This document shows, piece by piece, positions 7,438-34,085 of a DNA stretch of 35,544 bases. The notes beneath the pieces are model-generated. The model was not told the origin of the DNA and searched no databases. It was given only the letters and a program-made list of their open reading frames with translations. Origin of the DNA: Candidatus Pacearchaeota archaeon (GTDB lineage: Archaea > Nanobdellota > Nanobdellia > Pacearchaeales > GW2011-AR1); the NCBI GenBank assembly GCA_016784085.1, contig JADHVH010000001.1, forward strand, positions 1 through 35,544, in the 5' to 3' direction. Positions within the stretch are counted from its first letter, which is position 1, and each line of letters begins with the position of its first letter. The translations under genes and the position numbers were made by a program.

Positions 7438-7474
7438 CTTTATATACTCTTTTTTACCATTAAAAATAGGTTAA

Positions 7475-15857: not shown

Positions 15858-17327
15858 ATGGGGAGAGAAAATCAAATAATTGGTGAGAGATTAAAAAAAT
15901 TAAAAGAGCTGGAAAAATTAGGTATTGACCCTTATCCTGCTGAATTTGAAAAAAAAGATACCATCCAAAAATGTTTGGGATTAAAATTAAATTCTAAAGT
16001 TAAAACAGCTGGAAGAGTGATGATTAAAAGAGGTATTGGTAAAATAATTTTTAGCGAACTATTAGATGGTACTGGAAAAATTCAAATTGTCCTTCAAGAT
16101 AAAGAAACTCCAAAAAAAGCTGTTGATTTTTTTAAAAAATATGTTGATGCTGGAGATTTTGTAGGTGTTGAAGGAAAAATTATAAAAACAAAAACAGGAC
16201 AACTTTCTATTTTAGCTAATAAAATATTTTTATTAACAAAATCTATTTTACCTTTGCCCAATAAATGGCAGGGACTTAAAGATGAAGAAGAAAAACTAAG
16301 AAAAAGATATTTAGATATTCTTATGAGTCCTGAAATAAGAGAATTATTTTTGAAAAAAGAAAAGTTTTGGAAAACTATGAGGGATTTTCTAAATAAAAAA
16401 GGATTTACAGAAGTTGAGACCCCTATTTTAGAAAATTCTGCAGGTGGAGCTTCTGCAACTCCATTTAAAACACATCATCATGCTTTAGACATAGATGTTT
16501 TTCTAAGAATTTCAATGGGAGAGTTATGGCAGAAAAAATTAATGGTTGCAGGATATGAAAAAACATTTGAAATAGGAAGACAGTTCAGAAACGAAGGAAT
16601 GGATATGGAACATCTTCAGGATTATACTCAAATGGAATTTTATTGGGCCTATGCTAATTATAAAATGGGAATGGAATTGACTGAAAAAATGTACAAAGAA
16701 GTTACTAAGGCTGTTTTAGGAAAACTCACATTTGAAACAAGGGGCTATAAAGTTGATCTAGGAAAAAAATGGCAAATTTATGATTATGAAAAAACAATTA
16801 AAAAATATACAGGAGTAGATATTTACAATGTTGATAAAAATAAAATTAAAACAGAATTAGATAAATTAAAGGTAGAATATAATCCTACTGGAGATAAGTG
16901 GAGACTTGTTGATGCTCTTTGGAAATATTGTAGAAAAAAATTATCTGGCCCAGGATTTTTAGTTGGGCAACCAGTAGAAGTTTCACCTCTTGCAAAAAGA
17001 GATGTTAAAAACCCTAAAAAAGTTCAACAATTCCAAATTATTATTGCTGGAAGTGAAATGGGAAATGGTTATTCTGAATTAAACGATCCTCTTGATCAGG
17101 AAAAAAGATTTGAAGAACAGGCTAAATTGAAAAAAGCAGGAGATGAAGAAGCCCAGGATCATGATGAAGAATTTGTAGAAGCTTTGAAATATGGAATGCC
17201 TCCCACCTGTGGATTTGGTTTAAGTGAAAGATTTTTTTCATATTTAGTTGATAGGCCTGCAAGAGAATGTCAAATATTTCCTTTAATGAAACCTTTTGAA
17301 GAAAAGATCAATAAGAAGAAAAAATAA
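15858..17327 (+). CDS. lysS: lysyl-tRNA synthetase, class II
   Basis: It has an N-terminal OB anticodon-binding domain, class II motif 2 (FEIGRQFRNEGMD) and motif 3 (GFGLSERFFSYL), with LysRS-II-like collinearity. Confidence 0.93.
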   Translation: MGRENQIIGERLKKLKELEKLGIDPYPAEFEKKDTIQKCLGLKLNSKVKTAGRVMIKRGIGKIIFSELLDGTGKIQIVLQDKETPKKAVDFFKKYVDAGDFVGVEGKIIKTKTGQLSILANKIFLLTKSILPLPNKWQGLKDEEEKLRKRYLDILMSPEIRELFLKKEKFWKTMRDFLNKKGFTEVETPILENSAGGASATPFKTHHHALDIDVFLRISMGELWQKKLMVAGYEKTFEIGRQFRNEGMDMEHLQDYTQMEFYWAYANYKMGMELTEKMYKEVTKAVLGKLTFETRGYKVDLGKKWQIYDYEKTIKKYTGVDIYNVDKNKIKTELDKLKVEYNPTGDKWRLVDALWKYCRKKLSGPGFLVGQPVEVSPLAKRDVKNPKKVQQFQIIIAGSEMGNGYSELNDPLDQEKRFEEQAKLKKAGDEEAQDHDEEFVEALKYGMPPTCGFGLSERFFSYLVDRPARECQIFPLMKPFEEKINKKKK

Positions 17328-17328
17328 A

Positions 17329-17514
17329 ATGGCTTTAATTGTAAAATCTAATATTAAAAAAACTGTAAAAGAACTTGATAAAGAGGATTCTGTTTCTAGT
17401 GTTGCTGAAGAAGTTGGCCTTACTCTAGAAAGAAAAGTTGAAGAAATTTTAAAAAATGCCATTAATAGGGCAAAAGCAAATGGCAGAAGAACTATTCAAG
17501 CAAGGGATTTGTGA
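17329..17514 (+). CDS. DUF1931-like histone-fold-related small protein
   Basis: Its 61 aa read MALIVKSNIKKTV...VSSVAEEVGLTLERKVEEILKNAINRAKANGRRTIQARDL, which matches the remembered DUF1931 pattern (...AIERAKANGRKTV.ARDL). I used the ATG at 17329, just after the lysS stop, rather than 17296. Confidence 0.5.
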   Translation: MALIVKSNIKKTVKELDKEDSVSSVAEEVGLTLERKVEEILKNAINRAKANGRRTIQARDL

Positions 17515-17960
17515 TTATGCCTGAAAAAGAAAAAATTAGTAAAAGTAAACAAGGTAAAAAAAATCGTGCTGCAGGAGCTAGGTTTGAACTTAAAGTTAGA
17601 ACCCAATTGGAATCAGAAGGCTGGATAATTGATAAATGGGGGAATAATGTTGATTTTGAAGAACCAGAAGGAAAACTTGTAAAAGCTAAAAGAAAATATA
17701 ATCCTTTTATGAAAATTATAGCTATTGGAACTGGTTTTCCTGATTTTATTTGTTTTAAATTAAAAGATAAACAAAATTATGACGTGATTGGTGTTGAAGT
17801 TAAATCAAATGGTTATTTAGATAAAACAGAACGGGCAAAAGCAAAATTTTATTTAAAAAATAAAATATTTTCAAAATTTTTAATTGCAAAATCTAAAAAA
17901 GAGGGAAGAAGGATTCTTGTGGAATATGTTGATTTTAAAGACAAGTATAATAAAACTTAA
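17511..17960 (+). CDS. PD-(D/E)xK nuclease, Holliday junction resolvase Hjc-like
   Basis: The catalytic layout is AGARFELKV (E) ... GFPDFICF (D) ... IGVEVKS (ExK), as in Hjc, with an insertion between E and D. The start is a GTG overlapping the upstream stop; an alternative ATG lies at 17517. Confidence 0.5.
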   Translation: MIMPEKEKISKSKQGKKNRAAGARFELKVRTQLESEGWIIDKWGNNVDFEEPEGKLVKAKRKYNPFMKIIAIGTGFPDFICFKLKDKQNYDVIGVEVKSNGYLDKTERAKAKFYLKNKIFSKFLIAKSKKEGRRILVEYVDFKDKYNKT

Positions 17961-17984: not shown

Positions 17985-18512
17985 ATGAGTAAGTTAATAT
18001 TGGTTTTTCTAGTAATTTTACTATTGCCAATAATATCTTCTTGTGAAGAAGGCCAAATTAATCTAAATACAGCTTCTTTAGAAGAACTTGATTTATTATA
18101 TGGAATTGGGCCTTCAAAAGCTCAATCAATTATTGATAACAGGCCATTTACCTCACTAGCTGATCTAATTAATGTTAATGGAATTGGGCAAATTACTTTA
18201 AATAGAATTCTCGAACAAGGATTAATATGCTTTGATTCTGAAGAGGAAAATAATGATCCTTCTTCTGAAGAAAATCTTGACTCTCCTAGAACTTATTTTG
18301 TTTCAAATATTAGTAATTATTCAGAATTAGAATTTCTTCCAATAATTGGAAAAGTAATAGAACTAAATTCAAAAGATATAAATATGGCGGAAAATAATAA
18401 AGAATTAGAAAAAAGTGATTATGCATTATATGGATTTTTTATTTTCTGTATATTCTTAATTATTTTATTTAAAATAAAAAATACTTCAAATAAAAATGAG
18501 TTTCATGGATAA
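17985..18512 (+). CDS. ComEA-like secreted helix-hairpin-helix DNA-binding protein, membrane-tethered
   Basis: The signal peptide ends in a lipobox-like IISSC. A tandem HhH module follows (INLNTASLEELDLLYGIGPSKAQSIIDNRPFTSLADLINVNGIGQITLNRI), identical in pattern to the ComEA C-terminal domain. An acidic linker and a C-terminal TM helix (YALYGFFIFCIFLIILF) complete it. Confidence 0.7.
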   Translation: MSKLILVFLVILLLPIISSCEEGQINLNTASLEELDLLYGIGPSKAQSIIDNRPFTSLADLINVNGIGQITLNRILEQGLICFDSEEENNDPSSEENLDSPRTYFVSNISNYSELEFLPIIGKVIELNSKDINMAENNKELEKSDYALYGFFIFCIFLIILFKIKNTSNKNEFHG

Positions 18513-18987
18513 TGTTAAAAAAAGGATAAGGGCAACGTTTATTTTAGAGATAATTGGAGCTCCAGCAGAACATTTAGTAAAAACTCTTGAAAATATAATC
18601 GGACAAATTAAAAAAGAAAAAGGAATTAAGCTTATTTCTAGCAAAATTAATGAACCTAAAGTTTTGGAACAAAGGAAAGATTTTTTTGCAACCTTTGCAG
18701 AAGTAGAAATAGAAGCAGACGAAGCTATGCAAATATCCTTATTGATGTTTAAATATATGCCAGCCCATGTAGAGATTATTTCCCCTGAAAATCTAAGCCT
18801 TACAAACCATGATTTGGGAGAAATTCTAAGTGAACTTGCAAGAAGACTTCATAGTTATGATGAAATGGCAAGGGTCCTTCAAATTCAAAAAGAAAATCTT
18901 GAAAAAACAGTTAAAGAATTAACTGAAAAATCTGAAGAAAAAGTTGCTGTAAAAAAGAAATCTAAAACACCTATAAAAAAGAAGTAA
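18496..18987 (+). CDS. hypothetical cytoplasmic protein with a C-terminal coiled coil
   Basis: The ORF overlaps the comEA-like 3' end by 17 nt. It has no TM helix or signal peptide. The N-terminal part looks alpha/beta, the C-terminus (QIQKENLEKTVKELTEKSEEK) looks like a coiled coil, and I recognise no family. Confidence 0.45.
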   Translation: MSFMDNVKKRIRATFILEIIGAPAEHLVKTLENIIGQIKKEKGIKLISSKINEPKVLEQRKDFFATFAEVEIEADEAMQISLLMFKYMPAHVEIISPENLSLTNHDLGEILSELARRLHSYDEMARVLQIQKENLEKTVKELTEKSEEKVAVKKKSKTPIKKK

Positions 18988-18991
18988 AATA

Positions 18992-18999
18992 TTTATATA
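18992..18999 (+). promoter_or_regulatory. TATA box (TTTATATA) 29 nt upstream of the ATG at 19021
   Basis: It is consensus-like and has the same spacing as the boxes at 11006, 28091 and 33558. Confidence 0.55.
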
Positions 19000-19020
19000 T
19001 AGTATTTTGTTAATTTCTTT

Positions 19021-19734
19021 ATGAATAAAAAAGGTCAAATTACTATTTTTGTTGTTGTTGCAATTATTTTAATTGCTGTTATATCCCTATTTTATCTTTT
19101 TAAAGATAATTTAAGATCTAGCGGATCTGGAGAATATGATTACATTTATTCTTTTGTTGAAGAATGTATAAAAGATGTTGGGAAATCTGCAACATATTAT
19201 GTTTCAGAAAGAGGGGGCTATTTTATTCCTTCTGAATTATCTGCAGAAGAAATTCCCTACTATTACTATTCAGGGCAAAGTTATTTGCCTTCAAAAGAAC
19301 AAATTGAGGATGAAATTTCAAAATATGTAAATGAAATGTTATTTTTCTGCACTCAAAATTTTGTTGACTTTAGTGAAATTAATATCTCTCAAGGAAAAAT
19401 AAATTCTAAAACACATGTTCATGAAGAGGAAATTATTTTTGAGGTAGAATATCCAATTACTATTCAAAAAGGAGAAAATACTGTAATTATAAAGGATTTT
19501 GAAAATATTCCTATATTTATGAAACTAGGATCAATTTATGACTTATCTTCAGAAATAATTGAACAACAAAAAGGGAATAATGAAACTTGTTTAACCTGCC
19601 CTCTTAATTTTGCAATTGAACATGATCTTTATGTAGATATTTCCTTATATAACAATGATACAATATTATATCTTATTGAAGATCAAGATTATTCCCCCTC
19701 TCTTAAATTTAAATTTTTAAATAAATATAATTAA
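19021..19734 (+). CDS. class III signal peptide (type IV pilin-like) protein, paralog of the 28120 ORF
   Basis: The N-terminus is MNKKG|QITIFVVVAIILIAVISLFYLF. It is collinear with the 28120 product in the N-terminal helix, the ...GG[YS][FY] block, the IE.EI..[YS]V block and the C-terminal Y.[LE]....YS....F[KQ]F. Confidence 0.6.
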   Translation: MNKKGQITIFVVVAIILIAVISLFYLFKDNLRSSGSGEYDYIYSFVEECIKDVGKSATYYVSERGGYFIPSELSAEEIPYYYYSGQSYLPSKEQIEDEISKYVNEMLFFCTQNFVDFSEINISQGKINSKTHVHEEEIIFEVEYPITIQKGENTVIIKDFENIPIFMKLGSIYDLSSEIIEQQKGNNETCLTCPLNFAIEHDLYVDISLYNNDTILYLIEDQDYSPSLKFKFLNKYN

Positions 19735-19735
19735 A

Positions 19736-22108
19736 ATGAATAAAATAATTGCAATCCTTTTTGTTAGTATTTTTCTTTTTAGCTTTGTAGGGGCAGAAAA
19801 TATTGCTACAATAGATTTTCAAGGACTTGAATTTGTAGATTCAGATTTAATGCAAGAATTTCAAGAAGAAATTTGTGGAGAAGAATCTCTTAATCAAGAT
19901 TCTTGCCCTTTAGAAAATTCTTATGGAAAAATTGACAAAATCATTTCTCAAGAAAATTTGCTTTTAATTCAAAATATAAATCCTGAAGCAGCAAAGGCAA
20001 TAGAATTGAATAATCAAATTCAAGAATATGTCTCACAAGGAACACAAATTTTTGGAACCTTGGAAATAGATGAAATAGGGATTATTAGAAAAGGTATGTT
20101 TAAAGAGGGTTTTAAAACATTTGAAATTGGAAATTTTCTTAATCCTAAACTAAAACCAGAGTATGTTCAAATGAAAGGACAAGTTGAATTTATTTTTGCA
20201 TTTGCTCAAGAAGATTGGGCTCCTCTTGGAAAAGCAGAGATAATTCTTAATAAAGAAGGGGATTTTCTTGAAGCTATTAATTCTAATCCTTGCGCAGAAA
20301 TAAATTCTGAAGAAGATTGTGTCCCTGAAAAAACTATTTTTAATAACCTCCAATTTAACTTTGAGGGAGAGCCTATTGCAAATAGATTTGAATTAAATGA
20401 AAATGGTGAAATAACTTTTGCTAAATTTTATGTTAATGAAAATGGGGGAGAATATCTTATAGGAAATCAAATAATATATGCACCTTCTTCATCTTCTATT
20501 AAATATGAGAGGGGTTTGAATTCTATTTCAATTTTCATGGGTGTTAGCTCCAAACTAGATAATTTTCAAAAAAAAATTAATGATTCTCTAGGAGGAGCAG
20601 AAATTACTATTAAGGGGTCTGAACTTGAACTTCCCACTGGAGAAATATTGGAAGGAGAACTTTCTTATAAAGATAATAATTTTTTTATAAAATCTGGAAC
20701 TAAAAGATCTCTTTTAATTGATGGAATTAAATTTAAAAGTCCTGAAAAAGAAGATTTAACTGTATTTTTTGAAGGGGAACCTTCTGAGGATTTTCCTAAA
20801 AGTTATATTGCGTTTGATTCTAGGAAAGACCTTATTGTTTTAGATTCTAAAAAAGAGGTTATTTCAAATGTAGATCTTTATTATAGCCACTATAATTCTG
20901 AAAACTTAAGGATTAAAGAACTTCAAAATGCTAAAATAATTTTAGATACTAGGTCTTCTGAAAATTTAATACCTGAATTAAAAATAACTGAAAAAAAAGA
21001 CTCTAATTATGATCTTTTAATTGGAGAAATTGAAATTTACAATGAAAATGGAGAAATAAAAACAAAAATTAGAGATAATCTTAGAATTCCAAAATCTAGT
21101 ATAAGAGTGGCAATTGAAATAGATGATCAAGAAGGGAATAGCCTTCTTGGAACAGAAAGGTCTCCTCAAAAAATAATCACAAATGATTTTAATCAATTTT
21201 TATTTGTGCCTAAAGAAATTTCTGAAAAAGACATGATTGGTCCTGATTTTAGTGAAAGATTAAATTTTGATTATTCTGGAATTGAAAATGTTAAAAAAAA
21301 TATAGAAAAAGATTTTGGAATTGAAATTACTGGGGATGGGTCCCTTTATGATCTTAAAAGAATAAGAGATCTTCTTAATGCAGCTACTCCTGAAATGATT
21401 GGAGGTGTGAATAAAATTGAGCTTCTTAACGATGATGAAGATCTGAATGGTTTTGGGGGCGTTGCAAATCCTTATGGGAGAAAAATAAAGATACTAAATT
21501 CTGAATTAGACGGGGCTACCCTTATACATGAACTAGCACATACACGTACTTTTGAATTATTTCAAGAACCTAAAAGAATTTATGAAGAAGAATTTCAAGA
21601 TCTTAGATCAGACTATTTAAACAACCAAATAAGTGAAGAAGAATTTAGAATTTCAAGAGATAAATTAAAAAAGAAACATTCTTCCACTGGGAAAAGATTT
21701 AATTATTATCTTTTTCCAGAAGTTCAATTTATAAAAGAATGGGGAAATATTGCTGGAGATAATTATGGAAAAAATCTTGGTAAAAAGAGTTCTCTAAATC
21801 CAATATTTAAATTATTTAACATTGGGGTATCTAATGAATGGGCTGTAGATGAACTTAACAGTCCACTTTTAGGAGGAGACGGTAATTTCTTTGGTCCAAA
21901 AAATGGATTTATAAGACCTTATGGGGCAAATAATATTTTTGAAGATATTTCTACTTTTGTAGAAGAAACATATAAAAATCCAGCATTTTTTACAGATTTT
22001 TTAGATGTTAATTCAAAAGATTATGACCCCAGATATCTTGAAAAATTAAAATTATTAAAAAAATATGATTTTATAAGTGAAGAGGCTTATAACAATATTA
22101 TTAATTAA
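19736..22108 (+). CDS. large secreted protein (790 aa) with a HExxH zincin-like motif
   Basis: It has a Sec-type signal peptide (MNKIIAILFVSIFLFSFVGAEN). HELAH is encoded at 21526-21540 (GATLIHELAHTRTFELFQ), with acidic residues (EEEF) about 20 aa downstream that could serve as a third ligand. Otherwise I recognise no family. Confidence 0.55.
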   Translation: MNKIIAILFVSIFLFSFVGAENIATIDFQGLEFVDSDLMQEFQEEICGEESLNQDSCPLENSYGKIDKIISQENLLLIQNINPEAAKAIELNNQIQEYVSQGTQIFGTLEIDEIGIIRKGMFKEGFKTFEIGNFLNPKLKPEYVQMKGQVEFIFAFAQEDWAPLGKAEIILNKEGDFLEAINSNPCAEINSEEDCVPEKTIFNNLQFNFEGEPIANRFELNENGEITFAKFYVNENGGEYLIGNQIIYAPSSSSIKYERGLNSISIFMGVSSKLDNFQKKINDSLGGAEITIKGSELELPTGEILEGELSYKDNNFFIKSGTKRSLLIDGIKFKSPEKEDLTVFFEGEPSEDFPKSYIAFDSRKDLIVLDSKKEVISNVDLYYSHYNSENLRIKELQNAKIILDTRSSENLIPELKITEKKDSNYDLLIGEIEIYNENGEIKTKIRDNLRIPKSSIRVAIEIDDQEGNSLLGTERSPQKIITNDFNQFLFVPKEISEKDMIGPDFSERLNFDYSGIENVKKNIEKDFGIEITGDGSLYDLKRIRDLLNAATPEMIGGVNKIELLNDDEDLNGFGGVANPYGRKIKILNSELDGATLIHELAHTRTFELFQEPKRIYEEEFQDLRSDYLNNQISEEEFRISRDKLKKKHSSTGKRFNYYLFPEVQFIKEWGNIAGDNYGKNLGKKSSLNPIFKLFNIGVSNEWAVDELNSPLLGGDGNFFGPKNGFIRPYGANNIFEDISTFVEETYKNPAFFTDFLDVNSKDYDPRYLEKLKLLKKYDFISEEAYNNIIN

Positions 22109-22110
22109 AA

Positions 22111-22674
22111 ATGAAAAAAATATTAATTTTTATGCTTACTATTTTTCTATTAACAAGTGCTAGTGCAAGCATGCCTAAAATTTATGAAATAAGCCTTCAT
22201 TATTCAGATGGAGATTTTTCTCTTAATAATATTAGTGTTAAACTAGATGAAAATTCCTTAGAAAACATTCCTGGAGATTATACTGGAGAAATTATTTCTA
22301 GAGAAGGAAGTTTACTAGATATGTTTATTTTTGATATCCCTTCTTTTATCATTGCTGAAGATTTTGAAGGAGGAGGAAATATTATTTTTTACAATGAATC
22401 TGATTTTACAATTTATGCCCCCTATTATGAAAATGCTAAAGAAATTATTCTTTATTACAGTGAATATGAGGAAATTCTAAAAATAGTAGTAAATCAATTT
22501 TCATCATCTCTAGACAATCAAATTAATCTCCCTGAAGAAAACAATAGTCAGAATATTTCTTCAAATTATGAGAGTCAAACTCAAGAAAATACTAAAAAAT
22601 CTATCGAAGATTATTGGTGGGTTCTTTTAATTATTTTAATTATTTTAGTTGCGGTTTTAATAAAAAAGAAATAA
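22111..22674 (+). CDS. signal-peptide protein with a C-terminal TM anchor (187 aa)
   Basis: The N-terminal signal peptide is MKKILIFMLTIFLLTSASAS and the C-terminal anchor is YWWVLLIILIILVAVLIKKK. The ectodomain is acidic and Tyr-rich. Confidence 0.5.
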   Translation: MKKILIFMLTIFLLTSASASMPKIYEISLHYSDGDFSLNNISVKLDENSLENIPGDYTGEIISREGSLLDMFIFDIPSFIIAEDFEGGGNIIFYNESDFTIYAPYYENAKEIILYYSEYEEILKIVVNQFSSSLDNQINLPEENNSQNISSNYESQTQENTKKSIEDYWWVLLIILIILVAVLIKKK

Positions 22675-24024
22675 TTATTTTTTACCTTTTGCAATTCTGG
22701 CAAAATTTATTTTCTTTTTTTCTACACCTAAATATTTTTGTTTAAAGAACCAAAATAAGGCTAGAATTACTAAAAATACTAATAACCATCCAATTGTTTT
22801 GCCTAGATCTCCCCTATCTATTTTTTGCTCACATTCTGCTAAACAACAAAGACCATCTCTTGCAGGTTCTGTTTCTCCATTACAAATAAAATTTTCTTCA
22901 CAAATTACTCCTTGAATTTCTTCACAACTTTGTACAATAGCAGGATCATTTATTGTTTGGTTATTTTCTGGAAGAGGGATAAATTCTGGAAAAAATACTA
23001 AATCTATGGAGATAGAATCATTTAAAGTAAAACCATTTAATTTTGCCAAAATAAATCCTTCTAAAGACTTATTTTCTGAATCAGAAGTAAAATTAAGGGA
23101 TAACTTAAGGCTTTTATTTGCTTTTAATTCATCCACTGTATATTCAGATAATTCTAAATAAGGTTCTAAAGATTCTGAAATACTTAAAGAAATATTTTCT
23201 AAATCAGCTTCACCATCATTAAATAAATAAACTATTCTATTGGAGAGGTCATCAATATACATTGAAACAGAAATTTCTTGAGGTTCAAATTTAAAGCTTT
23301 TTTCTTTTAGTTCTTCAGGAATATTTGTAATAGTTACTTCAATAGGAATTTCATATTCTAGATTATTTGTACTTAATCTTACAAATTCAATTGTATTGTT
23401 AGTATTATTGGTGATATTCTCTAGATTAAAATAAATTTTTTTAGTTTCTCCCGGAATAAGGGTTATTGCATTATCTGAAATTTCATCTTCATTTGCAAAA
23501 AGGAAATCAAAAAAACCTATTGGCTCTTCTTCAGTTTCATTAAAATTAATATCAATTGTTATTTCTTGGTCTTGGAGATTTAAAGCCTCAATATAGAAAT
23601 TATTTTCTGCAACCACAAATCCAGGATTAATTGAAAAATCTGCTATTGATTCTAAAATTGTGAAATTTTTTTGGATTTCTTCTTCATTTGTTTGTCCTGC
23701 ACTAATATATCTTATATTTTTTAAAACAATAGAATAGTTTCCTGCTGTTTTACCAATTAATGAGGAATAAAGATAATATTCATTTCTTATTTTTGTTAAT
23801 TCAAATTCAAGAGGCACACTAGTATGTTGGTTTCTATAAAAAAAGATATTTTCTTCTTGTAAATTATCTACAAATGTTCCAGAAAATTTTATCATCATTG
23901 TTTCTCCTGTATTAAAATTATCTTTCATCTCTAAACTAATTGCAGAAACAAAAGATGGAAGTGTTATTAATAGAAATAAAGACAACACTAAAATTTTATT
24001 TATTTTAAATAAATCTATTTTCAT
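22675..24024 (-). CDS. surface protein: signal peptide, beta-sandwich-like repeats, one Cys-rich 'CC' module, C-terminal TM anchor
   Basis: It has a signal peptide (LFLLITLPSFVSA) and many N-x-S/T sequons. CARDB-like strings occur (VYLFNDGEADLENISLSI). The membrane-proximal module is CEEIQGVICEENFICNG...GLCCLAEC, followed by the TM helix IGWLLVFLVILALFWFF. Confidence 0.55.
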   Translation of the reverse strand: MKIDLFKINKILVLSLFLLITLPSFVSAISLEMKDNFNTGETMMIKFSGTFVDNLQEENIFFYRNQHTSVPLEFELTKIRNEYYLYSSLIGKTAGNYSIVLKNIRYISAGQTNEEEIQKNFTILESIADFSINPGFVVAENNFYIEALNLQDQEITIDINFNETEEEPIGFFDFLFANEDEISDNAITLIPGETKKIYFNLENITNNTNNTIEFVRLSTNNLEYEIPIEVTITNIPEELKEKSFKFEPQEISVSMYIDDLSNRIVYLFNDGEADLENISLSISESLEPYLELSEYTVDELKANKSLKLSLNFTSDSENKSLEGFILAKLNGFTLNDSISIDLVFFPEFIPLPENNQTINDPAIVQSCEEIQGVICEENFICNGETEPARDGLCCLAECEQKIDRGDLGKTIGWLLVFLVILALFWFFKQKYLGVEKKKINFARIAKGKK

Positions 24025-24071
24025 AAAAATGTTAAAGAAATGAGCTTAATAAAGTTTATTTTTCTAGAAAA

Positions 24072-25922
24072 CTATTTTCCCATCTCTCTTAATTTTCCAA
24101 GAACATCATCTAATTCACCTTTTCCCCTTTTTGCAGAAGAAGGAATTTGTCTTGGAGGCATTGGCCTTCTAGGTAATGGACCTCTTAATTGATGAACCAT
24201 TCTTGGAGGTCCTCTTCTAGGCCCATTAGGGCCTGTGGAATCCTTTTTTCCACTTTTCATTCTGAACATGAGTTCTCTTAACTTATCTTTGTAAATAATT
24301 CCAAGAACAATTAGAATTATTAATATTATTAAAATCCAAACCCAAATATTTGTTCCTTTTGGATCTGAAATTTCTTGACAACATACTTGGCTTGAAGAAC
24401 AACTATAATATGCTGTTTCCTCTTCGCCTGTTTCACAACTATATCTACAAACTCCAGAATTACTTGATTCACAAGTATTAGCACCAGTATTTTCTCCGTT
24501 ATCATCATCTATGTCTTCACAAGAACCCCAAACACAGCAAACTTCTCCAGAATATAGTAAATCATTTGCAGTAGCATCTTCAACTCCGTTTACACATCTT
24601 TGATTTGAATCACAAATTTCACCTTGTTTTTCTGAACAAGATTCAGAAAGCCCAACTTCACAACAAAAATATCCTGCTCCAGAACAAGTATATGAATCAA
24701 TAATTCTGCCCCCCCCATTCCAACAGGATTCCCGACCTTCACAAGAATATCCTGCAGTTTCACAAGTAGAAACAGGTTCTGGATCTACACTTCCTGTTGT
24801 TGCTCTTGGCCAAACAGAATAAAGTAAAAATGCATTTGATTTAATGTTTTTATTATCCCAACAACCGTCTTCATCTTGAACACCTTCTTCTAGAAGCCAA
24901 TTAATAGTATTTTGTTTTTCAACAATATCATCATATCTAAAAGGATATAATGCTAAGGCAGTATCATAGAATTTATTATTTGTAGAAATTTCCTGCCAAT
25001 ATTTATTGAAAATTTGTTTATTTAATAAGGAATATTGATATTCATTATTTTGAGTAATAAAATAAAGAAATGCTTCTGGTAAAAATCTATCATTTGTTTC
25101 ATCTTCAGCCATCACGATCAAATAAGGCATATATGAGGAAATATCTTCTCCAATAGATTCTAATGCTAATACAGACCACAGACTAGCTTCATAATTACAA
25201 ACACCAGATACTTCAAAACAATCTGAGTTTACAGATTCAATTGTTTTTCCATCTGCAGAAGCACCATTTGCTCCACTTAAAACATGAAGTGTTCCTGCTG
25301 AATCTCCACTATTTTTAAATATTAATGAACTTGTAAAATCCTGATCACATGAAATTTCAAAATCAGAACCATAGCAATTAGAATCTATATCTAACCAATA
25401 TCCTCCCTGAGATACTCTTAAACAATTATTTGTTTGCAAATTTCCGATTGTTTTATCTTCATTAAAATCAACATTGGTTGTTACAGGGTTTGAATTAATT
25501 TCATAAATTATTGAACATGTTGAAGCATCTGCAGTATCTATTTGTAAAAGCCATTCCATATTTGTAGGTGCTCCTTTTTGAGTAATTAACCAGTTTTTTG
25601 AGTCTTCAACACTTACACTTTTTTCATTTAAAGCCCACATAGCCATAGCAGTATTTTGCACATTACATCCTGAATTTGAAAAACATCCTGAATTTGCTTT
25701 TTCATCTAAAAGTTCTAATTTACATTTTCCTGTAGCTAAGAAAGAAAATACTTTTTCCTGCATTGAAAGGTCTTGACATCCTTTTTCAATAATTTCGCTA
25801 TTTAAACACGTGTAAGCATTATCTATTTGGGTAGAATTAAATTCAACTGAAGAAATAAAAGAGAGATTTGTTAGTAGGAATAAACAAACAAACAATATTG
25901 TAAATAGCCACTTCTTTTTCAT
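24072..25922 (-). CDS. surface protein: signal peptide, possible alpha/alpha-toroid ectodomain, three Cys-rich 'CC' modules, TM anchor, Pro/Arg-rich cytoplasmic tail
   Basis: It has a signal peptide (LFTILFVCLFLLTNLSFISS). QW-like strings (QDEDGCWDN, ASLWSVLALESIG) hint at a prenyltransferase/terpene-cyclase-like toroid, which is tentative. Three modules end in FCCEVG, VCCVWGSC and VCCQE. The TM helix is IWVWILIILIILIVLGIIY and the tail reads GPNGPRRGPPRMVHQLRGPLPRRPMPPRQIP. Confidence 0.55.
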   Translation of the reverse strand: MKKKWLFTILFVCLFLLTNLSFISSVEFNSTQIDNAYTCLNSEIIEKGCQDLSMQEKVFSFLATGKCKLELLDEKANSGCFSNSGCNVQNTAMAMWALNEKSVSVEDSKNWLITQKGAPTNMEWLLQIDTADASTCSIIYEINSNPVTTNVDFNEDKTIGNLQTNNCLRVSQGGYWLDIDSNCYGSDFEISCDQDFTSSLIFKNSGDSAGTLHVLSGANGASADGKTIESVNSDCFEVSGVCNYEASLWSVLALESIGEDISSYMPYLIVMAEDETNDRFLPEAFLYFITQNNEYQYSLLNKQIFNKYWQEISTNNKFYDTALALYPFRYDDIVEKQNTINWLLEEGVQDEDGCWDNKNIKSNAFLLYSVWPRATTGSVDPEPVSTCETAGYSCEGRESCWNGGGRIIDSYTCSGAGYFCCEVGLSESCSEKQGEICDSNQRCVNGVEDATANDLLYSGEVCCVWGSCEDIDDDNGENTGANTCESSNSGVCRYSCETGEEETAYYSCSSSQVCCQEISDPKGTNIWVWILIILIILIVLGIIYKDKLRELMFRMKSGKKDSTGPNGPRRGPPRMVHQLRGPLPRRPMPPRQIPSSAKRGKGELDDVLGKLREMGK

Positions 25923-27277: not shown

Positions 27278-27363
27278 GCAAAATTAAATCTCTAACAATA
27301 TATATAAATTACCTTATACTTAATAATAACAATACTTAAAAGTAAAACTTGTCTGATACAAAG

Positions 27364-28119: not shown

Positions 28120-28890
28120 ATGGGTGATACTTTAAACAAAAGAGGTCAAGTTACAATTTTTATTGTAGTTGCTATTGTTATTATTGCTATTGCTGCATTA
28201 CTATATCTTTTTTCTCCAAGTGTAAAATCTATTATTAGTCCTGATACTCAAAATCCTGAAGAATTTATTAGAGAATATCTTCAAGAAGAAATTGAAATGA
28301 ATATTCAAACTATTGCTATGCAGGGTGGAAGTTATGACTTAGAAAATATAGGTACTGCTAACTATGGAGAATATGAAGTTTCTTATTTATGTTATACTGA
28401 AGATCCTGCTCCTCTAAAATGTAGTTTATCTACTGCAGGAAATACTTTAATTCCATATATTGAAAGAGAAATAAAAAATTCTGTTGAACCTCTTGTAGAT
28501 AGTTCTTTTGATGCTCTTAAAAAAAGTTATGAAGAAGAAGGATATTCTGTAGATATAAAACCAGGAGACATTGAGGTAATTATAGTAGATAAACAAATAA
28601 AAATTAATATGGATTATAAGGTTCGTTTAGAAAAAGAAAATATAGATGAATATGAACAATTTAATATACTTGTAAATACTAATCTTTTTCAACTACTAAT
28701 CATTGCTACAAATATATTGCAATATGAAGCTAGTGTAGGTGTTGCAGATCCAAACAGATATTTAAACTCTGAAGGTCCAAAAGGATTTATCTGGCAAAAA
28801 GAACTATTAGCAGATGGAACAAAAATTTATGAACTTGAAAATATTTATAGTGAAGATAAATTTCAATTTGCAGTTAAGGGGGGATTATGA
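28120..28890 (+). CDS. class III signal peptide (type IV pilin-like) protein, paralog of the 19021 ORF
   Basis: The N-terminus is MGDTLNKRG|QVTIFIVVAIVIIAIAALLYLF. It is collinear with the 19021 product. Confidence 0.6.
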   Translation: MGDTLNKRGQVTIFIVVAIVIIAIAALLYLFSPSVKSIISPDTQNPEEFIREYLQEEIEMNIQTIAMQGGSYDLENIGTANYGEYEVSYLCYTEDPAPLKCSLSTAGNTLIPYIEREIKNSVEPLVDSSFDALKKSYEEEGYSVDIKPGDIEVIIVDKQIKINMDYKVRLEKENIDEYEQFNILVNTNLFQLLIIATNILQYEASVGVADPNRYLNSEGPKGFIWQKELLADGTKIYELENIYSEDKFQFAVKGGL

Positions 28891-30599
28891 AAAATAAAAC
28901 AATATTAAGTCTATTATTAATGATTTTTGTAGTTGTAGTTTCAATTAATTTAGTGAGTGCTGTTTGCTGTGAAAAAACAATTGAGGGGAATTCTTGTGTT
29001 TCTGTACCTCCTGAAAATTCAGATGCTTGTGTAAAACCACCTTATAAATCAGATGATGCTTTTTGTGAAGAAACTTCATATTGTTCTACAGGGACTTGTG
29101 TAAATACTAGACAGGGAACTTGTACTGTGAGTCCTTCTACAACTTGTGATCCTCTTTTAGGGGGGCTTTGGGTTGATGATTCTCCAGAAGATGTTCCTCA
29201 ATGCCAAGTAGGGTGTTGCATTATTGGTGAAGAAGCTAACTTTATTACAGAAACTTCTTGCATCTATAAAGTTTCTATAATTGAAGAGGAAACAGAATAT
29301 GAGTTTTTAAAAAATGTCCAAGACGGGGGAATGTGTGCTTCTTTAGCAAATCCTAGAGAAATGGGTGCTTGCGTAGATTCTGATAGTTCTGGAGGGAGAG
29401 ATTGCACTCATGAAACAAGAGAAAATTGTCAAAATAGCGGGCTAGATTTTTATGAAGGCTTTTTATGTTCTGCTCCTGAATTAAATACAAAATGTGGCCC
29501 TTCAGATACTACTTCTTGTATGGAAGGAGAAGAAGAAGTTTATTTTAGAGATACTTGTGGAAATTATGCAAATGTTTATGATGTTACTAAAATAGATGAT
29601 ACTTTAGGATATTGGACAGAAATGATAAGTACAGCAAATAGTTGTTTTACAGATATTGGTGATGAAAATAGTGTTTCTTCTTGTGGCAATTGTGTTTTTA
29701 GATTAGGAAGTACTTGTGGTAAATATCGTCCTGGAGAAGATGTGGCTCCAGACGAAGGGAACTATGTTTGCAGAGATTTAAGTTGTGAGTATGATAATGA
29801 TGGAGATGGTATAAAAGAATCATATGAACACGAAGAAAGATGGTGTGCAGATGCAGGATGGATAGATGGGACTCCTGGTAAAGAGGAAATTGTTTTAACT
29901 TGCTATAATGGTCAAATTACTAAGGAAAGATGTTCTTCATACAGAAAACAAGTTTGTTTCGAAACAGTATATGCTGAAGAAGAAATAGATGATAATTATA
30001 CTATTAAAGAAGAGGATTTTACTCAGGCTGCATGTGTTGTTAATAGTTATCCTGCATGTTATGGGTTCCAAACTAAATCAGATTGCGAAGATCAGGAATT
30101 AGTAGATTGTCAATGGCTTTTAGCAAATAAAGATACCAATTTATATGATAGTCTTTGGGAAAGCACAGAACTAGGTATTCCAGAAAATATGAAAAATAGT
30201 GAAAAAGGTTTTTGTCTTCCAGCATATGCTCCTGGGATAAAATTCTGGGAAGAAGAGGCTGCTTCAAGTTGTAATAGTTTTATACCTTCAGAATATGTTT
30301 GCGGAGTAGAATATGAAAAAGGTTTAATTGAAGTAGGAAAATATGGTGATTGGGATCTTGTAGAAGATGAGGTCACTTGTTTTAAAGAAACAACTTCTAA
30401 GGCAGATGATTTGCCTAAAACTAAATTAGACTCTACTTGGCAAACTCAAATGAAAAATGTTTGTTTAGCAACTTCTGATTGTGGTGTAAAAACAAATTAT
30501 TTAGGAGTAAATGGATATTATTCTTGGAAAGACTTGTTTGTAGGAGATTATATTGAAGATAGTTTAAGTAATTATAATAGCTATGGAGGAGGAAAATGA
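28887..30599 (+). CDS. secreted, extremely Cys-rich acidic protein (570 aa)
   Basis: It has a signal peptide (LSLLLMIFVVVVSINLVSA). My hand count gives about 41 Cys, spread along the whole mature chain and including CC pairs (AVCCEK, VGCCIIG). There is no TM anchor. It has an ATGA overlap with the upstream gene and a G-rich SD-like AGGGGGG. Confidence 0.6.
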   Translation: MKNKTILSLLLMIFVVVVSINLVSAVCCEKTIEGNSCVSVPPENSDACVKPPYKSDDAFCEETSYCSTGTCVNTRQGTCTVSPSTTCDPLLGGLWVDDSPEDVPQCQVGCCIIGEEANFITETSCIYKVSIIEEETEYEFLKNVQDGGMCASLANPREMGACVDSDSSGGRDCTHETRENCQNSGLDFYEGFLCSAPELNTKCGPSDTTSCMEGEEEVYFRDTCGNYANVYDVTKIDDTLGYWTEMISTANSCFTDIGDENSVSSCGNCVFRLGSTCGKYRPGEDVAPDEGNYVCRDLSCEYDNDGDGIKESYEHEERWCADAGWIDGTPGKEEIVLTCYNGQITKERCSSYRKQVCFETVYAEEEIDDNYTIKEEDFTQAACVVNSYPACYGFQTKSDCEDQELVDCQWLLANKDTNLYDSLWESTELGIPENMKNSEKGFCLPAYAPGIKFWEEEAASSCNSFIPSEYVCGVEYEKGLIEVGKYGDWDLVEDEVTCFKETTSKADDLPKTKLDSTWQTQMKNVCLATSDCGVKTNYLGVNGYYSWKDLFVGDYIEDSLSNYNSYGGGK

Positions 30600-33556: not shown

Positions 33557-33557
33557 A

Positions 33558-33565
33558 TTTATAAG
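33558..33565 (+). promoter_or_regulatory. TATA box (TTTATAAG) 29 nt upstream of the ATG at 33587
   Basis: It is consensus-like, is followed by TTTTCT, and has the same spacing as the boxes at 11006, 18992 and 28091. Confidence 0.55.
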
Positions 33566-33586
33566 TTTAATTTTCTATTTCTCCTT

Positions 33587-34084
33587 ATGAAAAAGAGAGG
33601 TCAGATGAAAATATCATTTGGAATGATTTTTTCAATTATTTTAATTATTATTTTTCTAAGTTTTTCTTTTGCAGCTATTAAAAAATTTGTAAGTATAAGT
33701 AATTCTGCGAAGTTAGCTCAATTTAAAGATGATTTTCAAGAAGATATGGATCGTCTTTGGAGAGGTTCTAGAGGAAATCAAAGTTTAGAATATAATATTC
33801 CTTCAAAAATAACTCATGTTTGTTTTGCAGATTATACTAAAGGCCCGGGAGGCGACGGAGAATTATATTATGATGAAATGGAACGTTATTTTTTCGAATA
33901 TGAAAATATGTTTATATTTCCACCAGAATCTGCAGAAGGTTTAGAAGCTACAACAATAAATCATTTGAATCTAGACGAGACAACTAGAATTACAAATCCT
34001 CTTTGTATTGAAAATAAAAAAGGAACTATTACCCTTAAAATTACTAAAGATTATGGTGAAAGTTTAGTCACAATATCTAGATAA
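33587..34084 (+). CDS. class III signal peptide (type IV pilin-like) protein, 165 aa
   Basis: The N-terminus is MKKRG|QMKISFGMIFSIILIIIFLSFSFAAI, followed by a small soluble domain. Confidence 0.6.
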   Translation: MKKRGQMKISFGMIFSIILIIIFLSFSFAAIKKFVSISNSAKLAQFKDDFQEDMDRLWRGSRGNQSLEYNIPSKITHVCFADYTKGPGGDGELYYDEMERYFFEYENMFIFPPESAEGLEATTINHLNLDETTRITNPLCIENKKGTITLKITKDYGESLVTISR

Positions 34085-34085
34085 A

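What the first reader, a model, noticed from the sequence alone, without database searches (positions are those of the whole stretch)
17985..19734. A ComEA-like extracellular DNA-binding protein lies immediately upstream of the pilin-like operons, giving competence-machine logic in an archaeon
Seen directly: the 175-aa ORF has a signal peptide ending in a lipobox-like IISSC. A tandem helix-hairpin-helix module follows (INLNTASLEELDLLYGIGPSKAQSIIDNRPFTSLADLINVNGIGQITLNRI), then an acidic linker and a C-terminal TM helix. Established knowledge: this HhH module is the dsDNA-binding domain of bacterial ComEA, which works with type IV (pseudo)pili to pull DNA across the envelope. Inference: pairing with the adjacent pilin-like genes suggests DNA or nucleic-acid capture. 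That would fit an organism that also carries a form III RuBisCO, which belongs to a nucleotide-salvage pathway. No ComEC-like channel is visible in this window.
Basis: partly seen in the sequence, partly recalled or inferred. Interest (0 to 1): 0.65.

Follow-up and report, generated by a model that had tools for sequence, protein, structure and literature searches.

The report
Archaeal surface protein with ComEA-type head
A small DPANN-type archaeon encodes a membrane-anchored surface protein whose outer tip is the same DNA-binding module that bacteria use (ComEA) to catch DNA, but its position beside pilin-like genes is a quirk of this lineage, so a pilus-based DNA-uptake machine is not supported.

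Summary
The 175-aa ORF (17985-18512, +) is real. It has a signal peptide, one ComEA-type tandem helix-hairpin-helix (HhH) head (Pfam HHH_3, E 2.9e-14; 44-46% identical to solved ComEA DNA-binding domains), an acidic disordered stalk, one C-terminal TM helix and a basic tail.

Two details of the observation fail:
- The "lipobox" is not conserved. The family shows a signal-peptidase-I site one residue before an invariant cysteine, which always co-occurs with a second invariant cysteine after the head.
- The gene is not immediately upstream of a pilin-like gene. A 163-aa MJ0538-family gene (18496-18987) overlaps its end.

The 17985-18512/MJ0538 pair is the conserved unit: 43 of 44 loci chosen only for MJ0538 carry the same anchor gene just upstream. 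The pilin-like cassette (19021-22674) was found in only two relatives, L001 and L099, and L099 has swapped the HhH head for another domain. No ComEC homologue lies near any of 115 archaeal loci.

The anchor defines a DPANN family of 633 clusters with interchangeable heads: HhH about 72%, lamin-tail domain, an unassigned domain, and one fibronectin-type-III-like head.

Best reading: a surface dsDNA receptor of unknown downstream fate. The pilus link is unsupported, and DNA binding itself is untested.

The parts
17985..18512 (+). Gene for a 175-aa type I membrane protein with a ComEA-type head (stop codon included)
   Evidence: ORF list. Pfam HHH_3 E 2.9e-14. About 24 full-length homologues of 170-200 aa.
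17985..18038 (+). Signal peptide, aa 1-18 (MSKLILVFLVILLLPIIS). Predicted signal-peptidase-I cleavage one residue before Cys20.
   Evidence: The family pattern is [IVL]-x-[ASG] | x-C, with a variable residue before the Cys. AlphaFold2 predicts a helix at residues 2-17. No dedicated signal-peptide predictor was available.
18042..18230 (+). Tandem helix-hairpin-helix head, aa 20-82, bracketed by invariant Cys20 and Cys82. It contains the GIGPSKA and GIGQ hairpins.
   Evidence: pLDDT 84-91. Foldseek: 8DSS ComEA rmsd 1.2 A at 44% identity, and 2DUY with target-normalised TM-score 0.81 at 46% identity. In 68 non-redundant heads: C20 68/68, C82 68/68, G42 67/68, R53 68/68, K/R at position 45 in 53/68.
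18231..18344 (+). Acidic, disordered stalk, aa 83-120
   Evidence: pLDDT below 50 for residues 86-125. The whole linker has 16 D/E and 5 K/R. Its length and sequence vary across the family.
18345..18416 (+). Conserved juxtamembrane motif, aa 121-144. The family consensus is I-x-L-N-x-K-x-I-K-x-E-x-N ... K-x-x-Y-A-x-Y-G, whose final Y-A-x-Y-G (aa 146-150) lies in the next part.
   Evidence: Alignments A2 and A4. The same motif is present behind non-HhH heads.
18417..18479 (+). C-terminal transmembrane helix, aa 145-165
   Evidence: Mean Kyte-Doolittle hydropathy 2.38 over 19 residues. AlphaFold2 predicts a helix at residues 143-170.
18480..18509 (+). Short basic cytoplasmic tail ending in KNEF(HG). 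Its AAT GAG codons contain the ATG of the next gene.
   Evidence: The tail has 2-6 K/R in all homologues, consistent with the positive-inside rule. KNEF is conserved even where the two genes do not overlap.
18496..18987 (+). Overlapping downstream gene: a 163-aa cytoplasmic MJ0538-family protein (PF27325). It is the conserved partner of the anchor gene.
   Evidence: Precomputed Pfam assignment. Overlap is 17 nt here and most often 14 nt elsewhere. 43 of 44 MJ0538-selected loci have an anchor gene just upstream. AlphaFold2 gives a beta-alpha-beta-beta-alpha-beta core plus a long helix, pLDDT 78.
18992..18999 (+). TATA-like box TTTATATA, 22 nt before the ATG of the pilin-like gene at 19021. It is the likely boundary of the two-gene unit.
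   Evidence: Sequence. Three of the 9 window matches lie 22-29 nt upstream of start codons. The total count is no higher than chance, so this is suggestive only.

Best explanation
ORF 17985-18512 encodes a type I membrane protein of a low-GC DPANN archaeon (Woesearchaeota/Pacearchaeota type).

A Sec signal peptide is removed by signal peptidase I, not by the lipoprotein pathway. The mature protein then displays a single ComEA-type (HhH)2 domain, bracketed by two invariant cysteines that may form a stabilising disulfide. The domain sits at the end of an acidic, disordered stalk of about 60 residues. A conserved juxtamembrane segment, one TM helix and a short basic cytoplasmic tail (KNEF) hold it in the membrane.

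The head most likely binds double-stranded DNA without sequence preference through its two GIG hairpins and Lys45/Arg53. This would tether extracellular DNA at the cell surface. What happens to the DNA afterwards is not known; degradation for nucleotides, import or adhesion are all open.

The protein is the commonest form of a DPANN-specific family. In that family the anchor is constant and the head is exchanged: HhH, lamin-tail domain, an unassigned beta-rich domain, or a fibronectin-type-III-like (FN3-like) domain. The gene always lies immediately upstream of, and usually overlaps, an MJ0538-family cytoplasmic protein gene. It is not an operon partner of the pilin-like genes.

Shown here: domain identity, topology features, residue conservation, the conserved gene pair, head swapping, and lack of conserved pilin or ComEC linkage. 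Inferred: DNA binding, the disulfide, surface display and biological role.
For: Domain identity:
- HHH_3 at E 2.9e-14.
- PDB sequence hits to ComEA proteins.
- Foldseek top hits are ComEA 8DSS and 2DUY at rmsd 1.0-1.2 A and 44-46% identity. The next hits, PsbU, are at only about 20% identity.
- Gly42, Lys45 and Arg53 have the same spacing as V. cholerae ComEA G60, K63 and R71. [quoted passage not shown] In 68 non-redundant heads they are conserved in 67, 53 (K or R) and 68.
- The GIGP[SA]KA motif matches the Gram-positive ComEA pattern.

Topology:
- Signal peptide, C-terminal TM helix and basic tail.
- An invariant Cys pair, present in only 3 of 102 bacterial HhH domains.

Family and context:
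- Anchor profile: 633 clusters at E <= 1e-3 and 304 at <= 1e-10, with the anchor always C-terminal.
- Heads among the top 150: 93 HhH, 20 unassigned domain, 15 LTD, 1 FN3-like.
- LTD was verified by Pfam at 55.4 and 46.9 bits against a gathering score of 34.3.
- LTD also occurs in extracellular DNA nucleases (ExeM, Hvo_1477; PMC6085458, PMC5118699).
- Conserved pair with MJ0538.
- NCBI and JGI already name homologues 'ComEA family DNA-binding protein' and 'competence ComEA-like helix-hairpin-helix protein'.
Against: - No binding assay exists.
- The head is acidic: net charge -5 here, family mean -5.2, against 0 for 2DUY and -3 for 8DSS over the aligned segments. The stalk adds further negative charge, which should disfavour DNA binding at low ionic strength.
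- 15 of 68 heads lack K/R at the key lysine position.
- Scores are below NCBI's curated cutoffs for ComEA models: TIGR01259 50.5 against 152.35, and TIGR00426 44.9 against 53.1.
- The same anchor carries Ig-like and FN3-like heads, which look like adhesin modules, and close relatives have swapped out the HhH head.
- HhH domains of this class can be non-DNA-binding (PsbU) or can bind fibronectin (ComE1, PMC2601033).
- Whether the genome has any DNA import channel is unknown.
Confidence: 0.55

Rival explanations
1. First reader's model. The ComEA-like protein works with the neighbouring type-IV-pilin-like proteins as a competence-type machine. A pilus brings DNA to the surface, the HhH receptor holds it, and the DNA is imported to feed nucleotide salvage through form III RuBisCO, or for transformation.
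For: - Class-III-signal genes are in the window at 19021, 28120, 33587 and 35015.
- A pilin-like cluster stays 6-9 kb downstream in at least 10 relatives.
- Type-IV-like pili are essential for natural transformation in Methanococcus maripaludis, and the archaeal DNA receptor and channel are unknown (PMC10133366).
- Type III RuBisCO is confirmed.
- Surveys of ultra-small prokaryotes report competence genes and pilins together (PMC9938205).
Against: - The adjacent cassette 19021-22674 is present only in the window, L001 and L099. It is absent next to the gene in 30 other genome loci.
- L099 keeps the cassette but has a non-HhH head. L097 has neither. The two features therefore assort independently.
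- An overlapping MJ0538 gene and a separate TATA-like box lie between them.
- The window has no pilus ATPase, platform protein or prepilin peptidase.
- No ComEC was found in 4,324 ORFs of 115 archaeal loci, whereas 9 of the bacterial loci have ComEC beside comEA.
- The distant pilin cluster sits in a block of conserved housekeeping synteny, separated from the gene by primase and PCNA.
Confidence: 0.15
2. Variable-head adhesin. The family is a surface attachment protein of an episymbiotic archaeon whose heads are swapped under diversifying selection. The HhH head binds a host-surface or matrix ligand, possibly but not necessarily extracellular DNA in biofilms, and has no role in import.
For: - At least four head types sit on one anchor, three of them beta-sandwich or adhesin-like.
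- A head was replaced in place between near-identical signal peptide and stalk in a genus-level relative.
- The head is acidic.
- ComE1 of Pasteurellaceae binds fibronectin through the same HhH motifs (PMC2601033).
- The neighbouring genes s449 and s616 are also surface proteins.
Against: - HhH is the head in about 72% of clusters, and the ComEA DNA-contact residues are retained.
- 44-46% identity to proven DNA-binding domains.
- The alternative LTD head is itself typical of extracellular nucleases.
- The constant cytoplasmic tail and the obligate MJ0538 partner are not needed for a simple adhesin.
Confidence: 0.2
3. Lipoprotein version of the first reader's anatomy. Cys20 is lipid-modified, so the protein is anchored at both ends.
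For: The window sequence I-S-S-C fits a loose lipobox, and Cys20 is invariant.
Against: - The residue before the Cys is D, N, Q, T, L, V or I in about half of the homologues.
- The conserved small residue is one position further upstream, which fits a signal-peptidase-I site.
- Cys20 always co-occurs with Cys82.
- A C-terminal TM anchor already exists.
Confidence: 0.03

Closest known systems
Bacterial ComEA (B. subtilis and G. stearothermophilus ComEA, PDB 8DSS/8DFK; V. cholerae ComEA; Thermus ComEA-related protein, PDB 2DUY)
   Same: - Extracytoplasmic tandem HhH (HHH_3) domain.
- 44-46% identity and rmsd 1.0-1.2 A to the solved domains.
- GIGP[SA]KA hairpin; equivalents of G60, K63 and R71 are conserved.
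- Short form without the 4-residue insert, as in 2DUY.
   Different: - The orientation is inverted. The head is N-terminal, directly after the signal peptide, and the anchor is a C-terminal TM helix.
- There is no SLBB/oligomerisation domain (PF10531 is present in the bacterial hits P0026-P0043 but not in the archaeal proteins).
- An invariant Cys pair flanks the head.
- The domain is more acidic.
- Scores are below the TIGR01259 and TIGR00426 cutoffs.
- No ComEC neighbour.
- The host is an archaeon.
Pasteurellaceae ComE1 (PM1665)
   Same: It has a ComEA-type HhH pair exposed outside the cytoplasm. It shows that this module can act as an adhesin as well as a DNA binder (PMC2601033).
   Different: It is a bacterial periplasmic or surface protein with a different architecture. 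Fibronectin is not a relevant ligand for an environmental archaeon.
PsbU, the extrinsic photosystem II subunit
   Same: It has an extracytoplasmic HhH fold, detected weakly by Pfam (E 0.002) and by Foldseek.
   Different: It is only about 20% identical, does not bind DNA, and is part of a photosystem. It serves as a reminder that the fold alone does not prove DNA binding.
MMJJ_13020, the single-TM OB-fold protein required for natural transformation in Methanococcus maripaludis
   Same: It is an archaeal membrane-anchored protein with an extracellular nucleic-acid-binding fold, and a candidate DNA receptor where ComEC is absent (PMC10133366).
   Different: It has an OB fold, not HhH. It is paired with a TctA-like transporter gene, whereas the protein here is paired with a small cytoplasmic MJ0538-family protein. 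No homology is implied.
Lamin-tail-domain extracellular DNA enzymes (Shewanella ExeM, Haloferax Hvo_1477)
   Same: Sibling members of the anchor family carry an LTD head in place of HhH. LTD accompanies extracellular nucleases.
   Different: The anchor proteins have no nuclease domain. The biochemical role of LTD is itself unsettled.

Membership tests
ComEA family (DNA receptor of natural transformation) | Tandem helix-hairpin-helix DNA-binding domain (Pfam HHH_3) | tested here: met
   HHH_3 at 53.4 bits against a gathering score of 27. Foldseek matches 8DSS and 2DUY at rmsd 1.0-1.2 A.
ComEA family (DNA receptor of natural transformation) | Curated whole-protein or domain model scores (NCBIfam TIGR01259 comEA, TIGR00426 ComEA HhH repeat region) | tested here: not met
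   TIGR01259 scores 50.5 bits against a cutoff of 152.35. TIGR00426 scores 44.9 against 53.1.
ComEA family (DNA receptor of natural transformation) | DNA-contact residues (V. cholerae G60, K62/K63, R71) | tested here: met
   G42, K45 and R53 have identical spacing, and position 44 is S (K62 is not conserved, as in Gram-positive ComEA). Family conservation is 67/68, 53/68 and 68/68.
ComEA family (DNA receptor of natural transformation) | HhH domain located outside the cytoplasmic membrane | tested here: met
   Signal peptide, C-terminal TM helix and basic tail, judged by sequence rules and AlphaFold2 helices. No SignalP or TMHMM-type tool was available.
ComEA family (DNA receptor of natural transformation) | N-terminal membrane anchor plus SLBB/oligomerisation domain (Gram-positive type), or a soluble periplasmic protein (Gram-negative type) | tested here: not met
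   No PF10531 in the archaeal proteins. The anchor is C-terminal.
ComEA family (DNA receptor of natural transformation) | Genomic or functional association with ComEC/Rec2 | tested here: not met
   A ComEC profile found nothing in 4,324 ORFs of 115 archaeal loci. Nine bacterial loci had ComEC next to comEA. Only the flanks were tested, not whole genomes.
ComEA family (DNA receptor of natural transformation) | Binds dsDNA and is required for DNA uptake | not testable with these tools
   Needs EMSA or anisotropy measurements and genetics.
Prokaryotic lipoprotein (lipobox) | Conserved [LVI][ASTVI][GAS]-C at the end of the signal peptide | tested here: not met
   The residue before the Cys is D, N, Q, T, L, V or I in about half of the homologues. 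The pattern is [IVL]-x-[ASG]|x-C.
Type IV pilus / competence pilus locus | Prepilin-type (class III) signal on the neighbouring gene product | tested here: met
   ORF 19021-19734 starts MNKKGQ|ITIFVVVAIILIAV. This is a motif only, with no Pfam or NCBIfam hit.
Type IV pilus / competence pilus locus | Assembly ATPase, platform protein and prepilin peptidase in the locus | tested here: not met
   No such family was found among the window ORFs scanned.
Type IV pilus / competence pilus locus | Conserved linkage of the receptor gene with pilin genes in relatives | tested here: not met
   The cassette is next to the gene only in the window, L001 and L099, and L099 lacks the HhH head.
DPANN 'KNEF-anchor' surface protein family (defined here) | C-terminal module: juxtamembrane I-x-L-N..K-x-I-K-x-E-x-N..Y-A-x-Y-G, then a TM helix, then a basic tail ending in KNEF | tested here: met
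   The window protein scores 81.7 bits (E 2.7e-18) against anchor profile A4. The window's own C-terminal sequence is row 1 of A4, so this score is partly self-matching. Independent support is that 304 other clusters reach E <= 1e-10.
DPANN 'KNEF-anchor' surface protein family (defined here) | Gene immediately upstream of, and usually overlapping, an MJ0538-family gene | tested here: met
   17-nt overlap in the window. 43 of 44 MJ0538-selected loci show the same arrangement.

The most novel reading that the evidence does not exclude
The conserved two-gene unit may be a previously undescribed DPANN envelope system for capturing extracellular polymers, mainly DNA. It consists of a swappable-head surface receptor with a constant juxtamembrane/TM/KNEF tail, plus an MJ0538-family cytoplasmic protein. 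The constant tail would couple ligand capture outside to the MJ0538 protein inside, for import, processing or signalling, independently of ComEC and of pili. If so, it would be the first candidate DNA receptor system specific to archaea of this radiation.
Probability: 0.15. Interest if true: 0.75.

Novelty: new variant of a known kind. Interest (0 to 1): 0.5.

Why it matters
In archaea that take up DNA, the surface receptor and the membrane channel are unknown, and ComEC is absent (PMC10133366, PMC6299819). DPANN archaea cannot make their own nucleotides and are thought to scavenge them.

A widespread, abundant and easily expressed ComEA-type ectodomain (633 clusters at 50% identity carry its anchor) gives a concrete, testable candidate for how these cells hold extracellular DNA.

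The head-swapping on a constant anchor, and the obligate pairing with an uncharacterised conserved archaeal protein (MJ0538 family), are new observations as far as I could find. They could guide work on DPANN surface biology.

The work also shows that gene adjacency in a single compact genome is a poor guide. The pilin neighbourhood that motivated the finding is a lineage-specific accident.

Tried and rejected
- Lipoprotein anchoring was rejected from family alignments.
- Operon with pilin genes was rejected from synteny in 31 genome loci and 10 metagenome loci.
- ComEC near the gene was not found. The ComEC query was validated as TIGR00361.
- A word-indexed search with the anchor alignment A2 returned only four fragments and wasted the last search of that kind.
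- PDB sequence searches for the MJ0538-family protein and for the upstream 149-aa protein gave nothing significant.
- Foldseek of the MJ0538 model gave only generic ferredoxin-like matches to ribosomal protein S6 (query-normalised TM-score 0.35-0.39), so no function could be assigned.
- The upstream 149-aa protein is not detectably related to the canonical Hjc that occupies the same slot in L089.
- The sigma-70 promoter and terminator scan is irrelevant for an archaeon and showed nothing above chance.
- Literature searches for 'ComEA' by word start were polluted by the author name Comeau. Whole-word searches found ComEA discussed only for CPR bacteria, not for DPANN.
- 'MJ0538' appears in no held paper.
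- The Cys20-Cys82 distance could not be measured because model coordinates are not exposed.
Full report
**What is at the coordinates**

The window is low-GC (about 28%). It carries archaeal informational genes: a histone, PCNA, the primase small subunit, ribosomal proteins S19e and L31e, and a type III RuBisCO. Related contigs are labelled Candidatus Woesearchaeota, Pacearchaeota or Nanoarchaeota archaeon. The organism is therefore a DPANN-type archaeon.

- Pfam HHH_3 matches residues 23-75 at E 2.9e-14, 53.4 bits, against a gathering score of 27.
- The best solved relatives by sequence are the Thermus ComEA-related protein 2DUY (E 7e-10) and Geobacillus and Bacillus ComEA.
- An AlphaFold2 model built on 20 homologues gives pLDDT 84-91 for residues 21-80. 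It predicts a disordered segment at 86-139 and a helix at 143-170.
- Foldseek places ComEA 8DSS (rmsd 1.2 A, 44% identity) and 2DUY (rmsd 1.0 A, target-normalised TM-score 0.81, 46% identity) first. PsbU follows at about 20% identity.

So the ComEA-type head is real and far beyond chance.

**Topology and the 'lipobox'**

Nineteen database homologues and about 30 genome loci share one architecture:
- a basic n-region and a hydrophobic core;
- the pattern [IVL]-x-[ASG], one variable residue, then an invariant Cys;
- the HhH pair and a second invariant Cys in the motif QGLAC;
- an acidic linker of 59-87 residues;
- a conserved juxtamembrane motif and a hydrophobic helix;
- a tail with 2-6 Lys/Arg, usually ending in KNEF.

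The residue directly before the first Cys is S, T, A, D, N, Q, L, V or I. That is incompatible with a lipobox and fits cleavage by signal peptidase I one residue before the Cys. The basic tail after the C-terminal helix places the tail inside the cell and the head outside.

Both cysteines are present in 68 of 68 non-redundant archaeal heads. Only 3 of 102 bacterial HhH domains have both. I infer a disulfide or some other extracytoplasmic role, but I could not measure the distance in the model.

**DNA-contact residues**

In V. cholerae ComEA, G60, K63 (with K62) and R71 are needed for DNA binding and uptake (PMC3879209). With identical spacing, the window protein has G42, K45 and R53. Position 44 is Ser, as in the Gram-positive pattern GIGP[SA]KA. 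Across 68 heads, G42 is kept in 67, R53 in 68, and K or R at position 45 in 53.

Against this, the head is acidic. Its net charge is -5 and the family mean is -5.2, compared with 0 and -3 for the aligned parts of 2DUY and 8DSS. The stalk is acidic as well. Scores also stay below NCBI's curated ComEA cutoffs.

**Surroundings**

The gene is not directly followed by a pilin-like gene. A 163-aa ORF (18496-18987) starts 17 nt before the stop codon of 17985-18512. It belongs to Pfam MJ0538 (PF27325) by the precomputed annotation.

Only then, after a 33-nt spacer containing TTTATATA 22 nt before the ATG, comes ORF 19021-19734. Its N-terminus MNKKGQ|ITIFVVVAIILIAV looks like a class III (prepilin) signal. 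The two genes after it, of 790 and 187 aa, have ordinary signal peptides.

No pilus ATPase, platform protein, prepilin peptidase or ComEC family was detected among the window ORFs scanned.

**Test of the pilin linkage**

I compared the window with 32 genome-derived loci from relatives sharing 35-89% identity in this protein. The conserved order is:
- the 149-aa PD-(D/E)xK-like gene;
- the ComEA-like gene;
- MJ0538, usually overlapping by 14 or 17 nt;
- two opposite-strand surface-protein genes;
- primase, then PCNA;
- a pilin-like cluster homologous to 28120-33556.

Homologues of the adjacent cassette 19021-22674 appear only in L001, whose housekeeping proteins are 91-98% identical to the window's. 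Elsewhere MJ0538 is followed directly by the opposite-strand genes. There the nearest prepilin-like ORF is typically the PCNA-proximal one, 6-7.4 kb away.

Among metagenome loci there are two informative relatives.
- L099 comes from a 511-kb contig with housekeeping proteins about 80% identical to the window's. It has the cassette, but its anchor protein carries a different head.
- L097 has that different head and no cassette.

**ComEC**

A ComEC profile was built from nine bacterial loci in which ComEC sits beside comEA. The seed ORF was validated as TIGR00361 at 407.6 bits. The profile found nothing among 4,324 ORFs of 115 archaeal loci. Whole genomes could not be searched.

**What the gene really belongs to**

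A scan of metagenome contigs with the MJ0538 alignment gave 80 loci chosen without regard to the upstream gene. Of 44 loci with distinct MJ0538 proteins and at least 800 nt of upstream sequence, 43 have immediately upstream a gene whose product ends in the same juxtamembrane/TM/KNEF module. The most common overlap is 14 nt.

The head varies:
- mostly HhH;
- a lamin-tail domain (Pfam LTD at 55.4 and 46.9 bits against a gathering score of 34.3; three more below threshold);
- an unassigned beta-rich domain of about 105 residues;
- HhH plus that domain, or LTD plus that domain.

In L099 the signal peptide (MGKLILAFLMLLLLPILSS) and the stalk and anchor are nearly the window's own. The head has been replaced between them.

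An anchor-only profile was searched against 1.84 billion representatives. It finds 633 clusters at E <= 1e-3 and 304 at <= 1e-10, with the anchor always at the C-terminus. Among full-length members of the top 150, 93 carry HhH, 20 the unassigned domain, 15 LTD and one an FN3-like segment.

The AAT-GAR codons of the KNEF tail contain the ATG of MJ0538. NEF is nevertheless also kept where the genes do not overlap, so the conservation is at least partly at the protein level.

The MJ0538-family protein is 50-66% identical among more than 300 homologues. Its model has a beta-alpha-beta-beta-alpha-beta core, a long C-terminal helix and a lysine-rich tail. Only generic ferredoxin-like fold matches were found, so its function remains unknown.

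**Interpretation**

The best-supported reading is a surface-displayed, ComEA-type dsDNA-binding head on a flexible acidic stalk, which would make the protein a DNA receptor at the cell surface.

Its sibling head, LTD, is also typical of extracellular DNA enzymes such as ExeM and Hvo_1477. That fits an extracellular-DNA theme, although the role of LTD is itself unsettled.

The Ig-like and FN3-like heads, the acidic charge, the in-place head swapping and the ComE1 precedent (the same HhH motifs bind fibronectin; PMC2601033) keep an adhesin reading alive.

The competence-machine reading is not excluded in principle. Archaeal transformation needs type-IV-like pili, and its receptor is unknown (PMC10133366). 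But it now has no positional support.

**Known or new**

Public pipelines already call homologues 'ComEA family DNA-binding protein [Nanoarchaeota archaeon]' and 'competence ComEA-like helix-hairpin-helix protein', so the domain assignment is not new. In the held literature ComEA is discussed for CPR bacteria, never for DPANN. 'MJ0538' occurs in no paper.

As far as I can tell the following are undescribed: the inverted architecture, the invariant cysteine pair, the constant anchor with exchangeable heads, and the obligate pairing with MJ0538. I rate the finding a new variant of a known kind, with moderate interest.

Noticed in passing
window 18496-18987 (+); loci L001-L032 and L088-L170: An MJ0538-family (PF27325) cytoplasmic protein gene overlaps the end of the anchor gene in almost every relative, most often by 14 nt. 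The protein is 50-66% identical across more than 300 homologues. Its model is a ferredoxin-like core plus a long helix and a Lys-rich tail. Its function is unknown.
   Followed up: yes
L088 2800-4020; L110 1973-2740; L122 4229-4975; L136 4289-4996; L155 840-1700; L099 4333-5013; L121 4286-4996; L141 4238-4975; L158 3965-5005: Same genomic slot and same C-terminal anchor, but the head is a lamin-tail domain, an unassigned beta-rich domain of about 105 aa, or a combination with HhH. L099 has the window's signal peptide and stalk with a replaced head.
   Followed up: yes
window 19021-22674 (+): A three-gene cassette: a 237-aa class-III-signal protein, a 790-aa secreted protein with an HExxH motif (HELAH, aa 598-602, nt 21527-21541), and a 187-aa type I membrane protein. 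It is present only in the window, L001 and L099, so it is an insertion or deletion relative to other relatives. No family hits.
   Followed up: partly
window 28120-35539 (+): A second cluster with class-III-signal ORFs (28120, 33587, 35015, perhaps 34086) and Cys-rich proteins of 570 and 986 aa. Homologues of its first three genes (28120-33556) follow PCNA in many relatives, and 33587-35021 matched in only one locus. No Pfam or NCBIfam hits and no recognisable pilus assembly genes.
   Followed up: partly
window 22675-25922 (-): Two conserved opposite-strand genes (449 and 616 aa) encode proteins with a signal peptide, a Cys-rich stalk and a C-terminal TM anchor. They are constant neighbours of the gene pair in relatives. 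Their function is unknown.
   Followed up: partly
window 17511-17960 (+); L089 3062-3463: The upstream 149-aa protein has a PD-(D/E)xK-like motif (GFPDF...GVEVK) and a weak VRR_NUC hit (E 0.036). In a Pacearchaeota relative the gene just upstream of the HhH gene is a canonical Hjc resolvase (95.5 bits), which is not detectably similar to it.
   Followed up: partly
window 15858-17327 (+) versus L089 1-1406: The lysyl-tRNA synthetase here is class II (PF00152). The gene at the corresponding position of a syntenic Pacearchaeota locus matches the class I type (PF01921). This may be a replacement in place by a non-orthologous enzyme.
   Followed up: no
window 7439-7446 (+), 18992-18999 (+), 27301-27308 (-): TTTATATA lies 22-29 nt upstream of the start codons of the S19e gene, the pilin-like gene and the primase gene. 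This is consistent with archaeal TATA boxes driving leaderless transcripts. The total count in the window is not above chance.
   Followed up: partly
window 4291-5565 (+): The RuBisCO large subunit meets the NCBIfam equivalog for type III (TIGR03326, 533.5 bits against 497.45). No AMP phosphorylase or ribose-1,5-bisphosphate isomerase was noticed in the window.
   Followed up: partly
loci L033-L087: The closest bacterial HhH domains to the archaeal heads include several CPR/Patescibacteria (Saccharibacteria, Staskawiczbacteria, Dojkabacteria, Kuenenbacteria) at 44-60% identity. This hints at exchange between co-occurring ultra-small organisms. No phylogeny was attempted on such a short domain.
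   Followed up: no
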